Positions 1 through 51,299 of a stretch of DNA of 51,299 nucleotides are shown piece after piece. Numbering within the stretch: position 1 is the first letter of the stretch; every line of letters begins with the position of its first letter. The notes under the pieces are model-generated. The model saw only the letters and a list, made by a program, of their open reading frames with translations. It did not search any database and was not told where the DNA came from. The DNA is from Escherichia phage vB_EcoS-G3B1, in the sequence record MZ234033.1, one strand, 5' to 3'. Made by a program: the position numbers and the translations under genes.

Positions 1-127
1 AAGGAGTCAATAAGCCACGATGAATTTATGGGGATCTTGTTGTTCGGTGACTCTTATCGTCTTGGTTACAAGATGGTTGAGCTTGTGGAAGAGGTCAAAT
101 TCTAAATAGCACTTTTTGTTAAAACTC
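1..127. repeat. Terminal 127-bp sequence identical to 51173-51299 (circular closure overlap)
   Basis: First 127 bases of the window are repeated exactly at its end; the ORF 51092..51277 reads through the junction. Confidence 0.9.
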
Positions 128-13993: not shown

Positions 13994-14044
13994 GTTTAAC
14001 AAAAAGTGCTATCATCTAGGCCGTTACATTTAACGGCCTTTTAT
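13994..14044 (+). promoter_or_regulatory. Inverted cassette motif (GTTTAACAAAAAGTGCTAT) plus hairpin and T-tract upstream of major capsid gene
   Basis: Reverse-complement form of the dispersed motif; hairpin GGCCGTTACATTTAACGGCC followed by TTTTAT. Confidence 0.5.
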
Positions 14045-17744: not shown

Positions 17745-17763
17745 TTTTAACAAAAAGTGCTAT
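17745..17763 (+). promoter_or_regulatory. Inverted cassette motif (TTTTAACAAAAAGTGCTAT) abutting RBS of tail chaperone gene
   Basis: Reverse-complement form of dispersed motif followed directly by AAGGAGA and ATG 17778. Confidence 0.5.
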
Positions 17764-27301: not shown

Positions 27302-27916
27302 TTAATCATAGTGTGATGCATTTATAACCAAAACAGATGAAGCGGTGTAAATACCAACAGGTCCAGGAGTTTGTGCAACCTGCCTAGAAAAAGAGTAGAT
27401 CCCGTTACCATACGCGGCAGCTTGAGACTCAAAAATCATGAATCCACCTAAAGCCGGATTAGGAACAGAGTTTAATGCTGTCAGTGATGGCATTATGGCG
27501 CAAGGATAGCCCATGTTAACATCAAATGCGATCCCGCTTACGCCTACTTGCTTTGCATCTAGCGGCCTCATTTTTCCATGATAAACCATTTCACCATGAG
27601 CATTATAAAACGCTATGCCGTGACTACCTGGGGGAGTAACCATATTACTAAAAGCATAAACAATAACCTCACCCTGATTATCAGATCTATCAAGTCTTAT
27701 TGCGTGCCTTCCACCATTGTTAAATTGCGTGAATGATATGTATGATTTAGCGGTCAATCTAACAAAGAAAAAACATACCCTATCAACAGGAATTGACGAA
27801 GTAAAAACGGTTCCGGTATTAGCAGATATTACGGCCCGATCAATTAGATTAACTGGAGTGAAATCTGGACTTAACCATAACGATCCGTCTGATTTTTTTA
27901 TACTCATCCCGTACAT
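27302..27916 (-). CDS. Hypothetical tail-associated protein (204 aa)
   Basis: First ATG at 27916 preceded by GGGGGTGA; co-transcribed with lipoprotein gene downstream of J-like gene. Confidence 0.45.
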   Translation of the reverse strand: MYGMSIKKSDGSLWLSPDFTPVNLIDRAVISANTGTVFTSSIPVDRVCFFFVRLTAKSYISFTQFNNGGRHAIRLDRSDNQGEVIVYAFSNMVTPPGSHGIAFYNAHGEMVYHGKMRPLDAKQVGVSGIAFDVNMGYPCAIMPSLTALNSVPNPALGGFMIFESQAAAYGNGIYSFSRQVAQTPGPVGIYTASSVLVINASHYD

Positions 27917-27918
27917 TA

Positions 27919-28197
27919 TCACCCCCAAAAAGTATATATATATCTTGAATCAGATCCAGAAAGCCCACTCCATGTAACGGTGTCGCCACTCACCCCTAAG
28001 TTTGGTGCGCCAGGGTCGCCACCACGCCAGGAATTCATGCCAACATATATTGCTTTCAATGATTTACCTGGCGGCCTGTTTTGGTAAGTCTTGCTACCTG
28101 ATGGCTGAGTGAATTTATCAAGGAAGAAAACAGGCGTTAAAAGTCCTGTAACTTCCCTTCCTCGATCGTCATATATTGCATAACCATATTGCGCCAT
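27919..28197 (-). CDS. Hypothetical protein (92 aa)
   Basis: ORF between lipoprotein and 204-aa gene. Confidence 0.45.
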   Translation of the reverse strand: MAQYGYAIYDDRGREVTGLLTPVFFLDKFTQPSGSKTYQNRPPGKSLKAIYVGMNSWRGGDPGAPNLGVSGDTVTWSGLSGSDSRYIYTFWG

Positions 28198-28466
28198 TAA
28201 TTACACCTCAAATCAATAAATTTACTTTCATTTTGCCAACGGTTGATAAATTTAACTTCTTTATTGTCAACGCTCAACCTGTATTGCTTTTGGCTGAATC
28301 TGTTTTCGCGGACTGCATTAATTTTGACTTCATGGAATCCGTTAACAGGGAATGTTTTAACGTTAAATTTTGCCGTGCAATCGATCTCCTTGAAGTTGCC
28401 AGTAGGCGACGCTGCGCATCCTGTCAGAGCGGCTACAGTGGCGATAACTGCGATTAACTTTTTCAT
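28197..28466 (-). CDS. Cor-like outer-membrane lipoprotein (candidate superinfection exclusion)
   Basis: Signal peptide with lipobox LTGC (MKKLIAVIATVAALTGC), 89 aa, located by receptor-binding module. Confidence 0.6.
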   Translation of the reverse strand: MKKLIAVIATVAALTGCAASPTGNFKEIDCTAKFNVKTFPVNGFHEVKINAVRENRFSQKQYRLSVDNKEVKFINRWQNESKFIDLRCN

Positions 28467-28496
28467 CTTTATATCTCCTTAGTTGTTGTTGTTTTC

Positions 28497-28542
28497 AACT
28501 ATACACGATCTTGGGCATCGCGTTTAGCAAAAAGTGCTATTT
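28497..28542 (-). promoter_or_regulatory. Cassette motif (minus orientation) with TATAGT -10-like element for lipoprotein operon
   Basis: Minus-strand reading CAAATAGCACTTTTTGCTAAAC...TATAGT...AAGGAG ATG. Confidence 0.5.
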
Positions 28543-28967
28543 GTTATTTTTTGTTTTCCGGTGTTATCGAATTTAAGACGGCGTAAATTTAGCGCAAAAT
28601 TTAGACAACATAAGATCAATAAACAATCAATAAAATAGATATATACATATAAAATCAATAGTTTATTTATTTATGTATGTATATTTGTTTTTTCTTGTTA
28701 TCTGCGTTTCTTGTGGTTTTGGTTGTTTGTGGTGATTTTTCTTTCTGAGTATCTGTATGTGCCATCATTCATGTGTATGTATATAATCCGGCGTATCTGA
28801 GAGAACATGGTAACAAGAAAAATAACACACATTAATCATTAACTTATGAGTCAAATCTGTTTTCTTGCCATCTGAGAACGTTTAGAAAACAGAAAAAACA
28901 AAACAGCTATTGACTAAATCAACCAAATGGCTACAATGCACGCATAAAGCAACAAGGAGCATTAAAG
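28543..28967. promoter_or_regulatory. AT-rich divergent intergenic island with ATCAATA repeats, GT-rich tract and promoter-like TTGACT-N17-TACAAT
   Basis: About 425 bp with no credible ORF; paralogous blocks shared with 49473-50084. Confidence 0.5.
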
Positions 28968-30023
28968 ATGAGTGATTTTAACGCCTACACTAGCGAAGAA
29001 ATGAGCAACGAGCTTTATCATGATCCTAACGCGTGGACTGCTGAATATGTCAGCGGTTCCAGCCTAGCGGAGATTTACAGCACTTGCCCGGCGTACTGGA
29101 AGTACAAGCCGCGCCAGGAAACTAAGGCACTTGTTTTCGGTACGCAGTCGCATACCAACTTTGAAAGCAAGGAGCTATTCGAAAAAACATATCGCCGCGC
29201 ACCGTCGCAGGATGATTTTAAAGATCTGATCACTAGTCAAACGGCGTTAGCATCAAAGCTGAAATCTTTTGGCCTGAAAGGTACAACGGGTAAACAATAC
29301 CCTGAATTACTGGAAATGCTGTACAAGTGCGGCGAGGATCTCAATGTGTGGTGGCTTATCGAAATGATGGCAGAATGCCAGGCCGCAGCGGACGGAGTGC
29401 AGTTAATAGACGCTAAAGATTATGATGCCTGTGTAGCGATGCGGCGCGTACTTGAGGCCATACCGGAGCATAACGCTTGCATGAACAGCCCAACCGCGCA
29501 GCGTGAAATGTCAATATTTGGGATCATCAACGGCGTAAAAGTAAAAGTGCGTCTTGATCACGTTGACGTAAACAAGGATGTAAAGGCAACAATCATTAAC
29601 GGTTACGACGAAAAAGGCAGGCCGATTTATGAAGAAGTCACCTATCCAGAAGCGGTGATTATCACTGACTACAAAACAACGGTTAGCGCAAATCCGGTTG
29701 ACTTCCAGCGCCTGGCTTACAATCACGGCTATTATCTTAAAATGGCTTTGCAACATGACTTATTCAAAAAGGCTTATCCAGACGAGGAAAGGCCAGTAAT
29801 TGTAAGATTGCTTGCGCAGGAGAAGAAAGAGCCTTACTTGCCGCTTGCTTTCCGCATGAATATTGAGCAATTGAAGATCGGGCGCATCCAGTACATGAGC
29901 GTGATCAACAAGTTCAACGTTTGCCAGCAGTTAGACGAATGGCCTTCGTATGCAAACGGGCAACCGGAAATTGATCTTGATACTCCTGATTGGGTTCGTG
30001 CTCAATTCAGGCATTATCTTTGA
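28968..30023 (+). CDS. Exonuclease (RecE/PD-(D/E)XK-like, putative)
   Basis: 351 aa first gene of recombination module; IITDYK motif; followed by Erf and SSB genes. Confidence 0.45.
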   Translation: MSDFNAYTSEEMSNELYHDPNAWTAEYVSGSSLAEIYSTCPAYWKYKPRQETKALVFGTQSHTNFESKELFEKTYRRAPSQDDFKDLITSQTALASKLKSFGLKGTTGKQYPELLEMLYKCGEDLNVWWLIEMMAECQAAADGVQLIDAKDYDACVAMRRVLEAIPEHNACMNSPTAQREMSIFGIINGVKVKVRLDHVDVNKDVKATIINGYDEKGRPIYEEVTYPEAVIITDYKTTVSANPVDFQRLAYNHGYYLKMALQHDLFKKAYPDEERPVIVRLLAQEKKEPYLPLAFRMNIEQLKIGRIQYMSVINKFNVCQQLDEWPSYANGQPEIDLDTPDWVRAQFRHYL

Positions 30024-31056: not shown

Positions 31057-31515
31057 ATGCACGTTATTACAGGTGAGATTCGAAAAGAGCCAAAAGTAAA
31101 GCAAATGCCTAACGGCAGCACGCTATATGTTATTGAGCTTTCCGAACGATACAAAGACCGAGAAGGAAATTGGCAGTATACAAACTATGTGTTTTTCTTT
31201 AACGCGAAAACAGACGGCCTGAATGGTTGGTATGCCGAGGCGTTCCAGGTAGGCAAGGTTGTTTCTGTTTCCTGCGATACCTTGCGAGTTGAAACGCGAG
31301 AATACAACGGAAAGATTTACAGCACCGTGCAGCCTGGCGGATTTGCAAACTTGCTATTTAGCCAGAGAGGTGAAAGCCAGCAACAATATCAGCAGCGAAC
31401 GCAAGGAGGCTGGTGGCAACCACAACAGCAACAGCAACAGCAACAAAATACTCAACAGCAGCCGCAGCAAAGCAATCAGCCTCCGATTGACTTTGACGAC
31501 GATATACCATTCTGA
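31057..31515 (+). CDS. ssb: Single-stranded DNA-binding protein
   Basis: Gln-rich tail and acidic C-terminal tip DFDDDIPF characteristic of SSB; RBS AGGAGAAAACAAA. Confidence 0.8.
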   Translation: MHVITGEIRKEPKVKQMPNGSTLYVIELSERYKDREGNWQYTNYVFFFNAKTDGLNGWYAEAFQVGKVVSVSCDTLRVETREYNGKIYSTVQPGGFANLLFSQRGESQQQYQQRTQGGWWQPQQQQQQQQNTQQQPQQSNQPPIDFDDDIPF

Positions 31516-34611: not shown

Positions 34612-35541
34612 TTATAGCAGTGATTCAGGCTTGTAGAGTTTTCTTTCTACGCCCTGTTTAAAATTATCGTTAACAGGCATCATTATGTCAAGCCCTCTTT
34701 CCTCTGCCGCGATTATCACATCACGATCATCTTTCCGGCAGACTACGCGCATTCTTCTTTCTCCTTTATATCTATGCGCAACCATTTCAAGATTTGAAGG
34801 AGTAAAACAGGCCCACACCTCTTGACCAGTTGATAAATGAACATGCTGAGAATCAATCCAATCAAGGCACAAATAGATCGTCTTATCTGTACTACCTGTT
34901 TTAACAACAGATCCGCGCGTGTAGTCGCGAGCTAAAAACCAATCCTTTCCATCCTCATCAATGAAAAGCACGTTACACATTTCATCATCCAGCCCGTCAT
35001 CATGCACCAGGTGACAAGGTAGCGCGTGAATGTATCGACCATCCTTGACGCCGCAATCATAATGACAATCTTCCGGCGGATATATCCCCTCATAAACGCT
35101 TAAAGGTGTGCGATCGAATTTTAATGTTTTTGCCATCACTTTTTCGCAACATTCATGACTTGCCTGTTTCCCGAACGAGTAACCAGAAGAACGCGAAGCG
35201 CGTTTGTTTGCTCTGATCCTGTAATCTTGTGGCACTTTTCCGAGGAAGCGGCCCAAAATGTTGATGGCCTCGCTGTAAGGTTCGCCAGTTAATTTCATTA
35301 ACCAACCGATCCCCGTGTCGTTGCCGCACACGTTGCAGATCGCGCCGCCGTCGCCCTCTTCATTTAGCTTATCAGTCCATCTAAAACGATCCTTACCGCC
35401 GCAGTGTGGGCAAGGTTGATGCTTTTTGTTGAAAACATCGCTATGCAGTCCGCAAATGCTTTGTAGTGCTTCACGCCATAACCCCTTCATATATGGCAAA
35501 ACATCTTCTTTCTGATAGGTCATAAAGTTTTCAGTATTCAT
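34612..35541 (-). CDS. DNA primase (zinc-finger containing, putative)
   Basis: CPHCGG...CNVCG zinc-binding motif; RBS GAGG before ATG at 35541 (ORF-track start trimmed). Confidence 0.5.
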   Translation of the reverse strand: MNTENFMTYQKEDVLPYMKGLWREALQSICGLHSDVFNKKHQPCPHCGGKDRFRWTDKLNEEGDGGAICNVCGNDTGIGWLMKLTGEPYSEAINILGRFLGKVPQDYRIRANKRASRSSGYSFGKQASHECCEKVMAKTLKFDRTPLSVYEGIYPPEDCHYDCGVKDGRYIHALPCHLVHDDGLDDEMCNVLFIDEDGKDWFLARDYTRGSVVKTGSTDKTIYLCLDWIDSQHVHLSTGQEVWACFTPSNLEMVAHRYKGERRMRVVCRKDDRDVIIAAEERGLDIMMPVNDNFKQGVERKLYKPESLL

Positions 35542-35553
35542 GGCAAACCTCAA

Positions 35554-35590
35554 TAAAAAAGCCCAGCAAATATTATCATTTCGCTGGGCC
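35554..35590 (-). terminator. Hairpin plus T-run between HTH gene and primase (possible attenuator)
   Basis: Minus-strand GCCCAGCGAAATGATAATATTTGCTGGGC then TTTTTT. Confidence 0.4.
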
Positions 35591-35596
35591 TTATCA

Positions 35597-36073
35597 TTAG
35601 CTATTCGTGCTGTTATCACCTTTGTAGAATCGTCCGCCTGGTTCGTAGTCTGAATTTTTGACTACGCGCAACATATCGTATTTGTCGCAACGGGTAGTAA
35701 GAGGCTTACCGTTAGAATCAAACCGCAGATCTGGACGACAAAATGATGCGCGGTATCCTTTGCATCCATTATATTTGTAGTCGTTATGCACCTTTTGTGC
35801 TCCAGCGGCTGAAATCATACCACGCTTTCGCCACTGGTTAACGACTTGCTGAGATACGCGCAGACGTCGAGCCATAGCAGGAACGCCGCCGTAATACTCG
35901 ATCAGAATGTCAAGGCGAGATTTCAGGCTTGCTTTTACCTCATCTCGCAGGATAAGAAATCCGGTTCGGTGTTTTCGTGGTTTTTTGTCTTTACCTCGTC
36001 GCGTTCCGTTGTTACCGTTAATAGTGCGCTTGTCGATCTCACCCGTAGATACTGCAATTCGTGCATCTTTCAT
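35597..36073 (-). CDS. HTH DNA-binding protein (Cro/CI-type-like)
   Basis: Segment GGVPAMARRLRVSQQVVNQWRKRG typical of helix-turn-helix; 158 aa. Confidence 0.45.
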   Translation of the reverse strand: MKDARIAVSTGEIDKRTINGNNGTRRGKDKKPRKHRTGFLILRDEVKASLKSRLDILIEYYGGVPAMARRLRVSQQVVNQWRKRGMISAAGAQKVHNDYKYNGCKGYRASFCRPDLRFDSNGKPLTTRCDKYDMLRVVKNSDYEPGGRFYKGDNSTNS

Positions 36074-36084
36074 CTAGTCACCTC

Positions 36085-36160
36085 ATAGCATTTTTTGTTA
36101 AAACAGTTTATTGTAATGAGTCTATTATATACTCCAAATGGCATTTTTTAAAGGTTTAAG
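36085..36160 (+). promoter_or_regulatory. Divergent regulatory region: cassette motif variant (ATAGCATTTTTTGTTAAAAC) serving helicase (+) and abutting RBS of HTH gene (-)
   Basis: Motif lies 11 bp from the HTH gene start and about 55 bp upstream of helicase ATG with TATTATAT -10-like element. Confidence 0.45.
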
Positions 36161-43023: not shown

Positions 43024-43419
43024 TCATGTGATATTGAATTTACGGCGCAGTGCTTCAAGATCTTGTCTATTAGCTTTTGCCTGGAACAATTCATCATCGC
43101 CCATCTCCCCTATTCTAGCTATATCCCTGATCCAGTCGTTGCGCATACCATCCAGGCTATACAATTCGAATCCGAAAGGCCGCTTTGACGATCCTTTGGA
43201 CCAGTATTTTCCGCAGACTCCATCTATATAACCAGCCGTCATCATTCTTGCGCAAAATTCCTTAGATGCAAGGCTGGCGAACATTCGCGGCGTAAGTCCG
43301 GCGGCCCGTGCGAGCCGCTCACATTCTCTATGCTGATAGATAAATTTGGCTATGTGCTGCCTGTTAAACCAATCGTATGACTCACACCATTTATACAGAT
43401 CAAGCAAAAACATAATCAT
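43024..43419 (-). CDS. Hypothetical protein (131 aa)
   Basis: Start overlaps stop of upstream P-loop gene. Confidence 0.5.
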   Translation of the reverse strand: MIMFLLDLYKWCESYDWFNRQHIAKFIYQHRECERLARAAGLTPRMFASLASKEFCARMMTAGYIDGVCGKYWSKGSSKRPFGFELYSLDGMRNDWIRDIARIGEMGDDELFQAKANRQDLEALRRKFNIT

Positions 43420-44996
43420 CCCAGCAGTATTGGATTGACAAAAATAACACCATTAATCACACAAACATAATTTCTTTCTTCCAGCATTGGCAGTAAGTGC
43501 CCTTCTATCCTTTTCATTACTCCAGCCTGACCAACGAAAGGTTTTACCTTTCTCGCTGATTCGTACAGGGCGCGGATATTCAGAATCCCTTTATTAGCCT
43601 TGCCGTGCCTCGTGATCAATTCAATCAATTTACCCATTTCAGCATCATCACCAGCATAACCAGAAGCATTGGCGGCGCTAATGTATGTTTTGCTCAATTC
43701 CTGAAACATGATCAACGCCTCTTGCATTGTTTCCACGTCGATCTCTTTCGACTTCTGCGGGTATCCGGCAGGATTAAACCAGTTACGGATAACATGCAGG
43801 ACGGAAGCAAGCCTGATCACCTGTTTATCCATTTTACCCAGCGCACCGCGTAACATTGTATGAGAATACTTTCCTCCGTCTGCAAGATGCGGTTCCATAT
43901 CCTGGCGAGCAATGTTGAGCACTCGCATAGCTGAACGGCTTATTTTCAGCGATATATTTGATTCGCTCATGATGTTATGCACCAATTGATAATATTGGGC
44001 TTTCAATTCAGAATCCACCGCCTCATAGGTAGAATCACCATTTTCATCAATGAATGAGCGACGGCCTAAGAATGATTCCTCTCGGACCAACAAAAAACGC
44101 TCACTAACACCGATGCCTCGCGATCCAGCGTCCATGATTCCGCTTATCGTTTCATCCTGGGCTATGACGCTCATACATCCAAGCGCGCGAAAACTCATAT
44201 TATTGTCAGCATTAGCACGGGCAATTGATACGTGACCATTATCCCACGCCTTAAGCACTAACTCACTGTTAGTCTTCCTTTCGCTATTTGCATATGTCAA
44301 GCCTAACAGACTGTTAATACTTGTTGCTTCATCAGATATTACGGCAAAGTTACCTTGCTTGTTGTTGATTTTCGCCAAGCCTTCTGGAGTTGTATCTGAA
44401 ACAGGAAAAGTTATATCACACATTTTTTCCAGCTTTTCCTCCAGATCCTCTTTTTCCTGGTATAGAGATTCCATATCAGCGCCGGATCTTTCGCTTTTCA
44501 TCTCCTTTGCAAGACCTGCCAGCTTTGCCTGTATTTTCTTTCTTTCCTTGCGGCGTTGCTCGTTGATCTTCTCAACTTCCGCAATCATCGGAGCAATAGC
44601 CATGCTGTTGATCGCAGATTTACCAGTTGACGGCGGCTGGCTTGTAACGACGTAAAGCGCAGTCGGCTGATCGGTTCCGTGATAGTCAACCGTAAAGCGT
44701 CCAAGCATAGCGGCAGAAATGCAGCCGATAAAGTGCATGTAAGCCGATGATTCAGGGAATTGAACGGATCGCGCAATGCTGCGTGATAACTTGCCGACAA
44801 CATCAATATCATTACCAAGAGAAATAACGGGGTAGCGATCGTGACCGCTATTCACATCCTTTACGTCGCCCCAAAAGCTGGACGACTGGCGATAGCCGTT
44901 AGCCTGAATTGATACGCGAACTGGCGAAAGGTTCTGGCTTTCAGCCATAGCGATTATTTGTTGTGGAGTTAATTTGTTCGTTTCTAATGAAAACAT
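43416..44996 (-). CDS. P-loop NTPase of unknown function (526 aa)
   Basis: Walker A SQPPSTGKSA and Walker B-like AVISDEAT; RBS AAAGGAGAAG before ATG 44996; first gene of a cassette. Confidence 0.6.
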   Translation of the reverse strand: MFSLETNKLTPQQIIAMAESQNLSPVRVSIQANGYRQSSSFWGDVKDVNSGHDRYPVISLGNDIDVVGKLSRSIARSVQFPESSAYMHFIGCISAAMLGRFTVDYHGTDQPTALYVVTSQPPSTGKSAINSMAIAPMIAEVEKINEQRRKERKKIQAKLAGLAKEMKSERSGADMESLYQEKEDLEEKLEKMCDITFPVSDTTPEGLAKINNKQGNFAVISDEATSINSLLGLTYANSERKTNSELVLKAWDNGHVSIARANADNNMSFRALGCMSVIAQDETISGIMDAGSRGIGVSERFLLVREESFLGRRSFIDENGDSTYEAVDSELKAQYYQLVHNIMSESNISLKISRSAMRVLNIARQDMEPHLADGGKYSHTMLRGALGKMDKQVIRLASVLHVIRNWFNPAGYPQKSKEIDVETMQEALIMFQELSKTYISAANASGYAGDDAEMGKLIELITRHGKANKGILNIRALYESARKVKPFVGQAGVMKRIEGHLLPMLEERNYVCVINGVIFVNPILLG

Positions 44997-48655: not shown

Positions 48656-48865
48656 TCAGATCCGCCCATACAGATCGCAAACTTCGTTGATAAAACAGCG
48701 TTGAGAATCTTTATCCTGCTTCTCAAAAATTGCGCGGCATTCAAACTTAAGATTATGCACGATGACTACAACCATATTTTCAGGCATTGAGCGGTTATAG
48801 CGTCGCGCGTCAGTGATTAAAACATCCATACCCATCTCATGTGCTTTCTTGATCACATCCAACAT
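48656..48865 (-). CDS. Small hypothetical protein (69 aa)
   Basis: RBS GGAGAAG before ATG 48865; ORF-track start trimmed. Confidence 0.45.
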   Translation of the reverse strand: MLDVIKKAHEMGMDVLITDARRYNRSMPENMVVVIVHNLKFECRAIFEKQDKDSQRCFINEVCDLYGRI

Positions 48866-49391: not shown

Positions 49392-49411
49392 TTACTATCT
49401 CCTGAGCGGTT

Positions 49412-49472
49412 CGTTTCGATGTGTGTAATGTACCCGATCAGGTGGCCTGAGTTTTAACAAAAAGTGCTATTT
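49412..49472 (-). promoter_or_regulatory. Cassette motif + TACATT + CACATCGAAACGAAC leader (first minus cassette)
   Basis: Minus-strand AAATAGCACTTTTTGTTAAAAC ... GGGTACATTACACACATCGAAACGAACCGCTCAGGAG. Confidence 0.55.
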
Positions 49473-50084
49473 GACAGTTAGCACCAGGATTGTGATCGAA
49501 ATAATCAAAAGTAATCATTCGTAATCAAATCACGTCAAAATGATGATTGTCTTTGCAAATTTGATGAGAAAAGTAATCACGTTTAATCATTGGTTGCAGG
49601 GGAGATAGTGAAACCTTCCCCTCTTGCCTCACTTTTCCGCCTGGCTGTCAGTGGTTGTTGTCTTTTGTTCACCACTGTTACCGATTTCATGCGGCGTGTT
49701 TCCGCGCGGTTTTCCGGTGTATCGAAAACGGAAAAAACAAAAAAAATCCTTTATAATACATTGAAAATAAAGATTATTTATTTATATATATCTATAATGT
49801 TTTCTTTTTGTTCTCACTGTTACAGTGCTTTTTGTTGGGTGTGGTGTGGTTGTGTGTTGGTATATATGGATAGTTGCGCGCGCGGCGGATTGCATATGTA
49901 TATATACTTTTTCCGGCGGATTGCGTTAACAGCGTGAACAGAAAAATAACAGCACTGAAATCAATAACTTGCGCATGATTTTGTAGTTTTTCGATATTGG
50001 TAACGTTTTGAATACAACAAAAACATTGACACGCACCAAATAGCTTTTATAATGCGCCAACAGTCAACAACTGGAGGAAAGGAA
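49473..50084. promoter_or_regulatory. AT-rich divergent intergenic island with GTAATCA iterons, GT-rich tract and near-consensus sigma70 promoter (TTGACA 50026-50031, TATAAT 50048-50053)
   Basis: About 610 bp without credible ORF; shares GTTTTCCGGTGT(T)ATCGAA, GT-rich and TGTATGTATATA blocks with 28543-28967. Confidence 0.55.
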
Positions 50085-50549
50085 ATGGAACAGAAGACCA
50101 CTAAGGACTATTGCGATTGGCTTCGCGAGCTTGGTCGCCGCCTGGCTAGTGGCGATATTGAAGAGTATAAAATGTCACTAATTGACCTGGCCGGAATGTT
50201 AAGCGGTGACGACTGCTACAAGATCACGCGCAGTTCATCCTACAGCCGGACCATTATCAACCGCGTTCCAGAAGTAAGGGCCGCAGGTCGGGTAAGCATC
50301 AAGGTAGAGGAAACGGAAGATGATAAATTTTACGTTTTCCGCATGGTCCGCGAATCGAAAAGGAAAATCATCACACCCGAAGAATTGCCAGCCATCAAGG
50401 CAAGGGCGATCAAAAAGTTTGCCGATCGCATACTGGCAGCAATCCCGAATATCGTGGACCTGGAAGGGGATAAACTGGCTGGGGCTTGCGAGGGTGTAAG
50501 CCGCTACCAGGATATGATCCGCGAAATCATCAAAGAGGAAGAGCAATGA
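50085..50549 (+). CDS. Hypothetical early protein (154 aa)
   Basis: RBS GGAGGAAAGGAA before ATG 50085, directly downstream of consensus promoter; ORF-track start 50052 lies inside the -10. Confidence 0.55.
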   Translation: MEQKTTKDYCDWLRELGRRLASGDIEEYKMSLIDLAGMLSGDDCYKITRSSSYSRTIINRVPEVRAAGRVSIKVEETEDDKFYVFRMVRESKRKIITPEELPAIKARAIKKFADRILAAIPNIVDLEGDKLAGACEGVSRYQDMIREIIKEEEQ

Positions 50550-51091: not shown

Positions 51092-51277
51092 ATGAAAACG
51101 AAACTAGTCCATAAGTCAGAAATCAAGATCGGCGATACTGTGATTCACAACGGCGAGCTTAGAACGGTTGGCAAGGAGTCAATAAGCCACGATGAATTTA
51201 TGGGGATCTTGTTGTTCGGTGACTCTTATCGTCTTGGTTACAAGATGGTTGAGCTTGTGGAAGAGGTCAAATTCTAA
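51092..51277 (+). CDS. Small hypothetical protein (61 aa), runs across the circular junction
   Basis: RBS AGGTGAATAG; C-terminal ELVEEVKF resembles the EFEEVK ends of 1171..1634 proteins; stop inside cassette motif. Confidence 0.5.
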   Translation: MKTKLVHKSEIKIGDTVIHNGELRTVGKESISHDEFMGILLFGDSYRLGYKMVELVEEVKF

Positions 51278-51299
51278 ATAGCACTTTTTGTTAAAACTC

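What the first reader, a model, noticed from the sequence alone, without database searches (positions are those of the whole stretch)
28543..28967. Paralogous AT-rich intergenic islands at the two divergent transcription junctions (28543-28967 and 49473-50084)
The two longest noncoding stretches share blocks: GTTTTCCGGTGT(T)ATCGAA (about 28551 and 49708), GT-rich tracts (about 28705-28735 and 49832-49860), TGTATGTATATA-type runs, and short iterons (ATCAATA repeats in the first, GTAATCA repeats near 49505-49585 in the second). Both sit where minus- and plus-strand gene blocks diverge. They may be duplicated early promoter/operator clusters, replication origins or sources of noncoding RNA.
Basis: seen in the sequence. 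Interest (0 to 1): 0.6.

Follow-up and report, generated by a model that had tools for sequence, protein, structure and literature searches.

The report
Duplicated early-promoter islands of T1-like phage
The two AT-rich gaps are true copies of one ~430-bp non-coding module found twice in every T1-like phage examined; each copy carries a strong host-type promoter plus a long, strictly conserved upstream region that is most likely an early-transcription control region and possibly a replication origin.

Summary
The window is a Warwickvirus-type T1-like phage (Drexlerviridae). The reported similarity is real. The cores 28545-28905 and 49655-50020 align collinearly at 69% identity (local score 82 against 22±3 for shuffles). 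The same paralogy holds in T1, Rogue1, PaulSarasin, morffagbaw and a Klebsiella phage.

Three parts are already known from the TLS and T1 literature:
- The shared CAAAAAGTGCTATTTG block is a leftward copy of the family's dispersed 21-nt repeat (22 copies here).
- The right edges are two of the three sigma70 promoters predicted in TLS.
- The IGR2-only 180-bp insert, which holds the GTAATCA/AATCA repeats, matches the T1 and TLS genome left end (pac region).

The new part is the ~370 bp in between:
- It is as conserved as core genes, and its length is invariant (370-372 bp in IGR1).
- It holds the genome's least stable duplex and its most GT-rich tract.
- An IHF-like site lies 76-77 bp (IGR1) or 66-67 bp (IGR2) from the -35, one helical turn apart.
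- It carries short TGTTA-type repeats.
- The two copies within a genome show concerted evolution.

I found no conserved ORF and no RNA-family support. The best reading is a duplicated immediate-early promoter control module (confidence about 0.5). A dual replication origin is not excluded (about 0.25).

The parts
28522..28542 (-). IGR1 leftward copy of the Drexlerviridae 21-nt direct repeat (caATAGCACTTTTTGCTAAAC). Its -10-like TATAGT lies at 28503-28498, the predicted start is near 28491, and it drives the cor-like lipoprotein gene that starts at 28466.
   Evidence: Pattern search: 22 hits against 2.4 expected. A -10-like hexamer lies 18-19 nt downstream, as in 16 of 20 copies. Consensus and orientation match the TLS paper.
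28541..28603 (.). Block 2: a T-run followed by GGTGTTATCGAA (unit U1), then GGCGTAAATTTAGCGCAAAATTTA. Paralogous to 49655-49726.
   Evidence: HSPs 28541-84 / 49655-97 and 28553-71 / 49709-26. Conserved columns in the 10-sequence alignment. Internal direct repeat with 28682-28702.
28615..28699 (.). AT-rich core (blocks 3-4). Contains the ATCAATA x3 copies, the TATATACATA / TATGTATGTATAT imperfect palindrome (arms 28622-54 / 28667-99), and a perfect IHF core consensus AATCAATAGTTTA at 28653-28665. It holds the second least stable 50-bp duplex and the least stable 100-bp duplex of the window.
   Evidence: Within-genome paralogue identity 0.75 against 0.65 for orthologues.
28682..28743 (+). Unit U2 (TTTTTCTTGTTATC) followed by the GT-rich tract. 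This is the most GT-rich 60-bp window of the genome (88% G+T on the + strand).
   Evidence: The composition is conserved but the sequence is not (identity 0.37-0.51).
28770..28793 (.). Second TGTATGTATATAAT run followed by the conserved CCGGCG.
   Evidence: HSP 28770-28845 / 49893-49970. Alignment. Also scores as a weak sigma70-like site, GTGCCA-17-TATAAT, but its -35 is not conserved.
28801..28846 (+). Three direct (G/T/A)AACA repeats (GAGAACA, GGTAACA, AATAACA; unit U3 in inverted orientation), then an IHF-like site AATCATTAACTTA at 28834-28846 (one mismatch to the core consensus).
   Evidence: The site-to--35 distance is 76-77 bp in all four IGR1 orthologues.
28885..28937 (+). A-rich UP-like tract (unit U4) and sigma70 promoter TTGACT-16-TACAAT. 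The predicted start is near 28944, and it drives the exonuclease VIII (recE)-erf-ssb operon (ATG at 28968).
   Evidence: Equivalent to TLS P51. Conserved in morffagbaw, PaulSarasin, K50 and T1.
49452..49472 (-). IGR2 leftward copy of the 21-nt direct repeat (exact consensus core). Its -10-like TACATT lies at 49432-49427, the predicted start is near 49420, and it drives the leftward early operon (gene start 49391).
   Evidence: Equivalent to TLS DR18.
49474..49654 (.). IGR2-specific insert. It holds the densest AATCA/TGATT cluster of the genome (7 copies in 127 bp, including the three GTAATCA) and the hairpin AGGGGA-N13-TCCCCT at 49598-49622. It is homologous to the region that holds position 1 of the T1 and TLS records, so it is the probable pac region.
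   Evidence: Gap in IGR1 in alignments. AATCA density, p ~ 5e-6. T1 and TLS end sequences. pac mapping in TLS and placement of the terminus in this UTR.
49655..49726 (.). Block 2 of IGR2. Contains unit U1 (TTTTGTTCACCACTGTTACCGA) and a second copy, GTTTTCCGGTGTATCGAA.
49736..49823 (.). AT-rich core of IGR2 (TTTATAATACATTGAAAATAAAGATTATTTATTTATATATATCTATAATG) plus unit U2. It holds the least stable 50-bp duplex of the window and is the part of IGR2 most widely conserved in distant Drexlerviridae.
   Evidence: Distant phage hits centre on query 231-351 = window 49704-49824. HSP 28643-28734 / 49756-49846, E = 1.4e-9.
49799..49860 (+). GT-rich tract of IGR2, the second most GT-rich window of the genome (85% G+T).
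49893..49971 (+). TATGTATATATAC run, then CCGGCG (49913-18), then three direct repeats GTTAACA / GTGAACA / AATAACA (49925-49952), then a perfect IHF core consensus AATCAATAACTTG (49959-49971).
   Evidence: The site-to--35 distance is 66-67 bp in three IGR2 orthologues.
50000..50053 (+). A-rich UP-like tract and sigma70 promoter TTGACA-16-TATAAT (12/12). The predicted start is near 50060, and it drives DUF7174 and the small early genes (ATG at 50085).
   Evidence: Equivalent to TLS P01.

Best explanation
The two islands are ancient paralogues of one non-coding control module that every examined member of the T1-like family (Drexlerviridae) carries twice.

Each module ends on the right in a near-consensus host sigma70 promoter with an A-rich UP-like tract. 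These are the promoters host RNA polymerase can use unaided on incoming DNA, so they fire the rightward immediate-early operons: recE-erf-ssb from IGR1, and DUF7174 plus small genes from IGR2.

Each module is bounded on the left by a leftward copy of the family's 21-nt repeat. Together with a -10 hexamer 18-19 nt downstream, that repeat forms a second, phage-specific promoter class.

I infer that the ~370 bp between the two promoters is a phase-locked upstream control region for the sigma70 promoter. It contains:
- an IHF-like bend site at about -96 (IGR2) or -106 (IGR1);
- three direct AACA-type repeats just upstream of that site;
- four T-run+TTGTTAYC units arranged two direct plus two inverted;
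- in the centre, the most easily melted and most GT-rich DNA of the genome, which would respond to the negative supercoiling generated between two divergent promoters.

Proteins bound there (host IHF and probably a phage regulator) would set the strength and timing of early transcription.

IGR2 additionally carries a 180-bp insert that corresponds to the packaging start (pac) region of T1 and TLS.

Shown by sequence: the paralogy, the promoter consensus, the conservation, the spacing and the physical extremes. Inferred: that the region acts on transcription, that IHF binds, and which phage protein is involved.
For: Paralogy:
- (score 82-88 against 22±3; z = 10.3).
- It is present in W, morffagbaw, PaulSarasin and T1, and in K50 and Rogue1.

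Promoters:
- 12/12 and 10/12 sigma70 matches, the former the only perfect one in 51 kb.
- The same positions in four genomes.
- The TLS authors found only three sigma70 promoters, and two of them are at these sites.

Leftward repeat:
- 22 copies against 2.4 expected.
- 14 of 20 copies have a -10-like hexamer exactly 19 nt downstream.

Coupling to the rightward promoter:
- The IHF-like site to -35 distance is 76, 77, 77 and 77 bp in IGR1 and 67, 66 and 67 bp in IGR2. Each value is fixed among orthologues, and the two sets differ by one helical turn.
- In IGR2 the module stays attached to the sigma70 promoter, while the 180-bp insert separates it from the leftward promoter.

Constraint:
- IGR1 is 500-503 bp long in four genera and 74-81% identical, the same as recE and both helicases.
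- The block-2-to--35 length is 370-372 bp.

IHF core consensus: 5 matches in the window, 2 of them in the islands. Matches are perfect at the block-8 position in 5 of 8 Tempevirinae/Klebsiella-phage modules.

Physical extremes.

No conserved ORFs.
Against: - No transcript, footprint or mutant data exist for any T1-like phage in the searchable literature.
- 370 bp with about ten conserved blocks is much more than known sigma70 upstream regions need.
- The third predicted sigma70 promoter of the family (36.1-kb junction) works without such a module.
- The IHF-like block-8 site is absent in T1 and Rogue1 although the module is present.
- Intrinsic curvature is not a shared feature (the wedge parameters were taken from memory).
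- The least-stable-DNA, inverted-repeat and concerted-evolution features fit an origin equally well.
Confidence: 0.5

Rival explanations
1. The modules are the (dual) replication origins of the phage. In this reading the AT-rich core is the unwinding element. The T-run+TGTTA units and the triple AACA repeats, arranged in inverted orientation around it, are loading sites for a phage initiator or for the MCM-like DUF3987 helicase. IHF bends the DNA, and divergent transcription from the two flanking promoters supplies the negative supercoiling that opens the duplex. The two copies would act like SPP1 oriL/oriR or P4 ori/crr.
For: - The two least stable 50-bp and 100-bp duplex windows of the genome lie in the two modules.
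- TGTT[AC][ACT]C occurs 9 times in the islands against 0.9 expected, in + orientation on the left and - orientation on the right.
- In T1 the 8-mer GTGTAACA occurs 4 times, all inside the two islands.
- Conservation and length invariance equal those of essential genes.
- Concerted evolution of the AT-rich block.
- Both islands abut replication/recombination operons.
- The TLS authors found no origin anywhere else.
- The phage encodes a P4-alpha-like primase and an MCM-like AAA+ helicase.
- P4 itself has two cis-acting regions that share an 8-mer repeat.
Against: - No initiator or origin-binding domain was identified. There is no homologue of the P4 alpha origin-binding part.
- The repeat motif is short and degenerate, was defined post hoc, and is not over-represented genome-wide.
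- GTTCAC is absent from IGR1 of this phage.
- No DnaA boxes were seen by eye; this was not scanned formally.
- GC skew simply follows transcription direction, so it gives no origin signal.
- The helical-turn relation to the -35 points to promoter coupling.
- T1 may rely largely on recombination-dependent replication (my own knowledge).
Confidence: 0.25
2. Only the flanking promoters are functional. The DNA between them is AT-rich spacer. It looks paralogous because it was duplicated together with the promoter, and it is kept similar by gene conversion through the phage's own RecE/Erf recombination system.
For: - Within-genome identity exceeds orthologue identity in block 4, and in K50 in blocks 2-3. 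Gene conversion would produce this pattern.
- The GT-rich tract is conserved in composition but poorly in sequence.
Against: - Orthologues from four genera keep IGR1 at 500-503 bp and 74-81% identity, equal to core genes.
- Sub-block lengths are fixed to within 1-3 bp.
- About ten blocks are conserved across three subfamilies.
- A neutral spacer would have decayed and changed length.
Confidence: 0.1
3. The islands encode small non-coding RNAs or tiny hydrophobic peptides (for example from the GT-rich tract).
For: - The + strand of IGR1 folds slightly better than shuffles (z = -2.2).
- Some GenBank records annotate 3-5 'hypothetical proteins' there.
- The GT tract can be read as a 20-aa hydrophobic ORF; this comes from my own reading of the sequence and falls below the 30-aa cut-off.
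Against: - No Rfam family at gathering or relaxed thresholds. The only hits are far below threshold: Ocean-V at 23 bits against a cut-off of 75, and snoU18 at 22 bits against 47.
- The minus strand has z = -1.1.
- ORFs differ in frame, start and length among ten homologous sequences.
- No conserved internal promoter or terminator.
Confidence: 0.05

Closest known systems
TLS/T1 regulatory elements: the 21-nt direct repeat aaATAGCACnnnTTGnTAAAA and sigma70 promoters P01 and P51 (Phage 2024, PMC11447400)
   Same: The leftward blocks at 28522-42 and 49452-72 match the consensus, orientation and distance to the start codon (about 76-81 nt). The rightward promoters sit upstream of the same genes as TLS P51 (exonuclease) and P01 (first gene after the genome end).
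   Different: That paper lists the elements individually and calls the repeat's function unknown. It does not describe the 370-bp paralogous region between them, the fixed -10 hexamer 19 nt after the repeat, or the relation between the two islands.
IHF-dependent upstream activation of sigma70 promoters (lambda pL, Mu Pe, ilvPG UAS1 with supercoil-induced duplex destabilisation); my own knowledge
   Same: An IHF-consensus site roughly 90-105 bp upstream of the start, embedded in or next to very AT-rich, easily melted DNA. The spacing to the promoter is fixed and preserved modulo one helical turn.
   Different: Binding and activation are untested here. The region is three to four times longer, carries extra repeats and a GT-rich tract, and exists in two copies per genome.
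Two-site phage origins: P4 ori/crr (annotated in NC_001609) and SPP1 oriL/oriR (my own knowledge)
   Same: Two distant non-coding regions of one genome share short repeats in both orientations next to AT-rich DNA. The window's primase is homologous to the primase part of P4 alpha.
   Different: P4 has 6 to 10 exact TGTTCACC copies per region and an alpha protein with an origin-binding domain. Here the repeats are degenerate, differ between subfamilies, no origin-binding homologue exists, and no replication data exist.
pac regions of headful-packaging phages (T1 and TLS left end; P22, SPP1)
   Same: The IGR2-only insert aligns with the place where the T1 and TLS records start, and it is packed with short AATCA/TGATT repeats.
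   Different: This concerns only 49474-49654, not the shared module. The cut site was mapped at low resolution in TLS and only inferred for this phage.

Membership tests
Bacterial sigma70 promoter | -35 TTGACA and -10 TATAAT hexamers separated by 16-18 bp | tested here: met
   50026-50053 is TTGACA-16-TATAAT (12/12). 28910-28937 is TTGACT-16-TACAAT (10/12). Conserved in orthologues.
Bacterial sigma70 promoter | Transcription start mapped about 7 nt downstream of the -10, active with host RNA polymerase alone | not testable with these tools
   No transcript data for any Drexlerviridae found.
Drexlerviridae 21-nt direct repeat (TLS DR1-18) | Match to aaATAGCACnnnTTGnTAAAA, intergenic, oriented with transcription, about 76 nt upstream of a start codon | tested here: met
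   28540(-) has one mismatch and 49470(-) has none. The 5' ends lie 76 and 81 nt from the start codons at 28466 and 49391. Consensus.
IHF binding site | Core consensus WATCAANNNNTTR with AT-rich DNA on its 5' side | tested here: met
   28653-28665 and 49959-49971 are 2 of only 5 matches in the window. 28834-28846 has one mismatch. Perfect at the block-8 position in morffagbaw (both islands), PaulSarasin IGR1, K50 IGR1 and W IGR2.
IHF binding site | Binding and bending by IHF | not testable with these tools
   Needs a footprint or gel shift. The site is missing in T1 and Rogue1 modules.
Iteron-type or initiator-helicase replication origin | AT-rich DNA unwinding element | tested here: met
   The two least stable 50-bp and 100-bp windows of 51 kb are at 49749/49733 and 28635/28596.
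Iteron-type or initiator-helicase replication origin | Several well-defined repeats that bind the initiator | tested here: inconclusive
   TGTT[AC][ACT]C occurs 9 times against 0.9 expected in the islands, but the motif is post hoc and degenerate. There are triple AACA repeats. T1's GTGTAACA is 4/4 inside the islands.
Iteron-type or initiator-helicase replication origin | A cognate origin-binding protein encoded by the element | tested here: not met
   No homologue of the P4 alpha origin-binding region. Candidates exist only by fold or family: an MCM-like helicase and a Cro-like HTH protein.
Iteron-type or initiator-helicase replication origin | Initiation of DNA synthesis or autonomous replication at the site | not testable with these tools
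   GC skew is uninformative because it follows gene orientation.
pac site (IGR2 insert only) | Coincides with the first packaging cut or genome end | tested here: inconclusive
   Position 1 of T1 and of TLS aligns to about window 49540-49560. The TLS end was mapped by restriction analysis, and SU57 places the terminus in this UTR. There are no read-end data for this phage.
Structured non-coding RNA | Match to a known family or significant conserved structure | tested here: not met
   Rfam gave nothing at gathering thresholds and only sub-threshold chance hits at E <= 1. Folding z-scores are -2.2 and -1.1.

The most novel reading that the evidence does not exclude
The two modules are the long-sought replication origins of T1-like phages. 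In this reading they form a pair of concertedly evolving origins. The genome's most meltable DNA, flanked by inverted short repeats, would be opened by supercoiling from two divergent early promoters and loaded with the phage's MCM-like helicase and P4-alpha-like primase. Early transcription and replication initiation would then be physically the same element.
Probability: 0.22. Interest if true: 0.62.

Novelty: new variant of a known kind. Interest (0 to 1): 0.42.

Why it matters
T1 is one of Delbrück's seven classic coliphages, yet its transcription programme and replication origin are still unmapped. The 2024 TLS re-annotation explicitly lists the function of the 21-nt repeat as an open question and reports finding no origin.

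This analysis delimits, to the base, two homologous 430-bp regulatory modules that are as conserved as the replication genes. It gives exact predicted start sites, spacing rules and candidate protein sites. It also separates the shared module from the pac-region insert.

That turns 'where does early transcription, and possibly replication, start in Drexlerviridae' into a handful of direct experiments. It also identifies compact, very strong and probably regulated host-range promoters that are of interest for engineering these widely used phages. The kind of element itself is not new.

Tried and rejected
- Rfam at gathering and relaxed thresholds found nothing credible.
- RNA folding of both strands gave weak z-scores.
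- ORFs of 30 aa or more in ten homologous sequences show no conserved frame. The 115-aa TTG ORF at 49590-49937 and the tiny 'hypothetical proteins' annotated in some GenBank records are rejected.
- Cumulative GC skew as an origin indicator is uninformative because skew follows gene orientation in every block.
- Intrinsic curvature, computed with a wedge model whose parameters I took from memory, is average in IGR1. Only the pac-side part of IGR2 is curved, so curvature is not a shared feature.
- Chi-like activity of the GT tract is rejected: the only exact Chi is at 31409, and no near-Chi lies in the islands.
- I considered sigma54, DnaA-box, ArcA and OmpR readings of the short motifs by eye. 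Spacing or consensus does not fit, or the motif is too short to assign, so I make no such claim.
- A P4-type ori/crr membership is rejected. The TGTTCACC-like core GTTCAC is absent from IGR1 and under-represented in the genome, and there is no alpha origin-binding homologue.
- A search of 5,426 complete E. coli genomes for the module (satellites, prophages) found no match.
- Literature searches for T1-family transcriptomes, origin mapping or any mention of the paralogy found none. The T1 genome paper is not held.
- The ATCAATA tandem as a functional iteron is rejected because it is not conserved in orthologues.
Full report
**Identity of the window.** The sequence is 98-99.7% identical over both regions to Escherichia phages tunzivis, tunus, tonn and relatives. 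These are Warwickvirus, subfamily Tempevirinae, family Drexlerviridae, the T1-like phages. The first 127 bases repeat exactly at the end, an assembly overlap of a circularly permuted genome.
- IGR1 (28467-28967) lies between a leftward cor-like lipoprotein gene and the rightward exonuclease VIII (recE) gene.
- IGR2 (49392-50084) lies between the first gene of the long leftward early operon and a rightward DUF7174 gene.
- In T1 the equivalent of IGR2 spans the ends of the GenBank record.

- Local alignment of the two islands scores 88, against 22.7±2.3 for dinucleotide-preserving shuffles. No other part of the genome scores above 42 against IGR1.
- BLAST resolves a collinear chain: 28523-43/49453-73 (20/21), 28541-84/49655-97, 28643-734/49756-846 (74%, E = 1e-9) and 28770-845/49893-970 (73%). 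The two promoters follow.
- After removing the shared promoter motifs, the cores 28545-28905 and 49655-50020 still score 82 against 22.4±2.9. Their global alignment has z = 10.3 and 69% identity, with lengths of 361 and 366 nt.
- IGR2 differs mainly by a ~180-bp insert at 49474-49654.

**The paralogy is a family trait.** The same IGR1/IGR2 similarity scores 66-81 against ~22±3 in morffagbaw, PaulSarasin (Changchunvirus) and T1 (Tunavirinae). It is also evident in a Klebsiella phage and in Rogue1 (Rogunavirinae). A ten-sequence alignment shows about ten blocks conserved across both orthologues and paralogues.

**What is already known.**
1. *The 21-nt repeat.* The block CAAAAAGTGCTATTTG is, on the minus strand, a copy of the 21-nt repeat aaATAGCACnnnTTGnTAAAA described for TLS. 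That paper reports 18 intergenic copies, oriented with transcription and about 76 nt upstream of start codons, with function stated to be unknown. The window has 22 matches against 2.4 expected, so this block is not specific to the two islands. Lining up all copies shows something the paper does not mention. In 14 of 20 copies a -10-like hexamer (YATAAT-like) lies exactly 19 nt after the 19-nt core (two more at 18 nt, one at 20). The spacer often contains a GC-rich inverted repeat. That places the repeat at about -50 to -32, with its TAGCA-N5-TGCTA palindrome centred near -42. This is the geometry of a class-II activator-dependent promoter, which is an inference.
2. *The sigma70 promoters.* The right edges are near-consensus: TTGACA-16-TATAAT at 50026-50053, the only 12/12 match in the window, and TTGACT-16-TACAAT at 28910-28937. 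They sit upstream of the same genes as TLS P01 and P51, two of only three sigma70 promoters those authors could find.
3. *The pac region.* Position 1 of the T1 record (which annotates a 2.8-kb terminal repeat from position 1) and position 1 of TLS both align to about 49540-49560 of the window. The TLS start was set from restriction mapping of pac. The SU57 paper also places the terminus and pac in this UTR. The insert holds the densest AATCA/TGATT cluster of the genome: 7 in 127 bp against 0.65 expected.

**What is new: the ~370 bp between the promoters.**
- *Conservation.* IGR1 is 501, 501, 503 and 500 bp in four genera. It is 74-81% identical to the window, the same as recE (76-79%), erf and both helicases.
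- *Length.* From the start of block 2 to the -35 is 370, 371, 371 and 372 bp in IGR1, and 348-380 bp in IGR2. Sub-block lengths are fixed to within a few bp.
- *Physical extremes.* The two least stable 50-bp and 100-bp duplex windows of the 51-kb genome are at 49749 and 28635. Immediately to their right lie the two most GT-rich windows: 88% and 85% G+T on the + strand, with the next best at 75%.
- *Internal repeats.* Each module contains four related T-run+TTGTTAYC units, two direct on the left and two inverted on the right. The outer ones abut the two promoters as A-rich UP-like tracts. TGTT[AC][ACT]C occurs 9 times in the islands against 0.9 expected, although the motif is post hoc and the looser TGTTMWC is not over-represented in the genome as a whole. 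In T1 the 8-mer GTGTAACA occurs four times in 48.8 kb, all inside the two islands.
- *Triple repeats.* About 110-130 bp upstream of the -35 there are three direct (G/T)(T/A)AACA-type repeats in every module. Their exact sequence differs between subfamilies.
- *IHF-like sites.* The IHF core consensus WATCAANNNNTTR has only five matches in the window, and two are in the islands. At the block-8 position the site is perfect or one mismatch off in nearly all Tempevirinae-type modules.
- *Helical phasing.* The distance from that site to the -35 is 76, 77, 77 and 77 bp in IGR1, and 67, 66 and 67 bp in IGR2. Each value is fixed among orthologues, and the paralogues differ by one helical turn.
- *Concerted evolution.* In the AT-rich block 4 the two copies within a genome are more alike (0.72-0.83 in W, morffagbaw, PaulSarasin and T1) than orthologues are (0.65). 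In the Klebsiella phage the same holds for blocks 2-3, and in Rogue1 the AT-rich blocks of the two islands are nearly identical.

**What it is not.**
- No ORF is conserved in frame or position among ten homologous sequences.
- Rfam gives nothing at curated thresholds and only chance-level hits at E <= 1.
- Folding energies are barely better than shuffles.
- The module does not occur in complete E. coli genomes.
- GC skew follows gene orientation everywhere, so it says nothing about an origin.
- A wedge-model curvature profile shows no shared bend (parameters from memory).
- There is no Chi or near-Chi in the GT tracts.

**How it most likely works.**
- *Shown by sequence.* Each island is a divergent promoter pair. 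The rightward sigma70 promoters are the ones host polymerase can use unaided, so they should be immediate-early. The leftward repeat-type promoters lack a -35 at the proper distance and probably need a phage factor.
- *Inferred.* The 370-bp region is an upstream control region tied to the rightward promoter. Two observations argue for this. The insert in IGR2 separates the module from the leftward promoter but not from the sigma70 promoter. The one-helical-turn relation of the IHF-like site to the -35 is what face-of-the-helix-dependent upstream activation predicts; lambda pL, Mu Pe and ilvPG are precedents from my own knowledge.
- *Speculation.* The extremely meltable AT core and the alternating TG/TA tracts lie where negative supercoils from two divergent polymerases accumulate. 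They could make the promoters supercoil-sensitive or buffer them.
- *Candidate phage factor.* The Cro-like helix-turn-helix protein at 35597-36073 is expressed from the third sigma70-like promoter. This is unproven.

**The main rival.** The same features also describe a replication origin: the least stable DNA, short repeats in inverted arrangement around it, IHF-like sites, conservation equal to essential genes, two copies that evolve in concert, and adjacency to replication and recombination genes.
- The phage encodes a primase homologous to the primase part of P4 alpha (24% over 253 aa, E = 9e-17).
- It also encodes a DUF3987 protein whose confident AlphaFold model (pLDDT 85.8) matches MCM-type AAA+ helicases (Foldseek E = 5e-6, TM 0.32-0.37).
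- P4 offers a precedent for two cis-acting replication regions sharing an 8-mer.
- Against membership in that family: there is no homologue of the alpha origin-binding part; the P4-like core GTTCAC is absent from IGR1 and is under-represented in the genome; and no initiator was identified.
- I therefore rate the origin reading at about 0.25. It is not exclusive of the promoter reading.

**Novelty and value.** The individual end elements and the pac location are published. In the searchable literature I found no description of the long paralogous module, its length invariance, its physical extremes, the helical-turn relation or the concerted evolution. The kind of element (a phage early promoter control region, or an origin) is known. 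This is an unusually long, duplicated and tightly constrained variant in a classic phage family whose transcription programme and origin remain unmapped. Interest is moderate.

Noticed in passing
window 1-127 and 51173-51299: The first 127 bases are repeated exactly at the end of the window. This is an assembly overlap of a circular or permuted genome, so the unique length is 51,172 bp.
   Followed up: yes
20 sites, e.g. window 106, 1098, 3868, 38574, 39645, 42906(-), 45742(-), 50815: In 14 of 20 copies the family's 21-nt repeat is followed by a -10-like hexamer exactly 19 nt later. The spacer often forms a 4-6-bp GC-rich inverted repeat. The repeat's palindrome TAGCA-N5-TGCTA would be centred near -42. 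This looks like a phage-specific, activator-dependent promoter class, and it bears on the open question posed in the TLS paper.
   Followed up: partly
window 13994-14012(-) and 17745-17763(-): Two copies of the 21-nt repeat lie antisense inside the rightward late structural gene block. No gene follows them, so their role is unexplained.
   Followed up: no
window 43416-44996(-): The DUF3987 'DNA helicase' gives a confident AlphaFold model (pLDDT 85.8, pTM 0.84). Its best PDB matches are MCM2-7 and archaeal MCM subunits (Foldseek E = 5e-6, TM 0.32-0.37), which suggests an MCM-like AAA+ replicative helicase with a C-terminal helical/winged-helix-like domain.
   Followed up: partly
window 34612-36160: The third divergent junction (36074-36160) is only 87 bp. 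It holds a rightward 21-nt-repeat promoter and a leftward TTTAAA-17-TATAAT promoter for a Cro-like HTH regulator (35597-36073) and a P4-alpha-like primase (34612-35619). It has no paralogous module.
   Followed up: partly
window 27302-28197(-): The two membrane-protein genes next to cor are on the minus strand in this phage and its Warwickvirus relatives. Their homologues are on the plus strand in T1, morffagbaw and PaulSarasin. This is a local inversion bordering IGR1.
   Followed up: no
L002 (T1) 103-120 and 48735-48755: T1 carries two leftward copies of the 21-nt repeat in its IGR2 equivalent, one on each side of the genome end. The inner copy, followed by the hairpin ACCAGGTTCGCCTGGT, has decayed in the window.
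   Followed up: no
window, whole: The hexamer GTTCAC is under-represented: 9 occurrences against 18.8±4.3 in shuffles. ATCAATA is over-represented: 28 against 11.3±3.4. Neither is explained.
   Followed up: no
window 50052-50549: The mechanical ORF starts at an ATG inside the -10 region of the promoter (50052). The start at 50085, which has a GGAGG ribosome-binding site, fits the DUF7174 profile from residue 4 and is the likely true start.
   Followed up: partly
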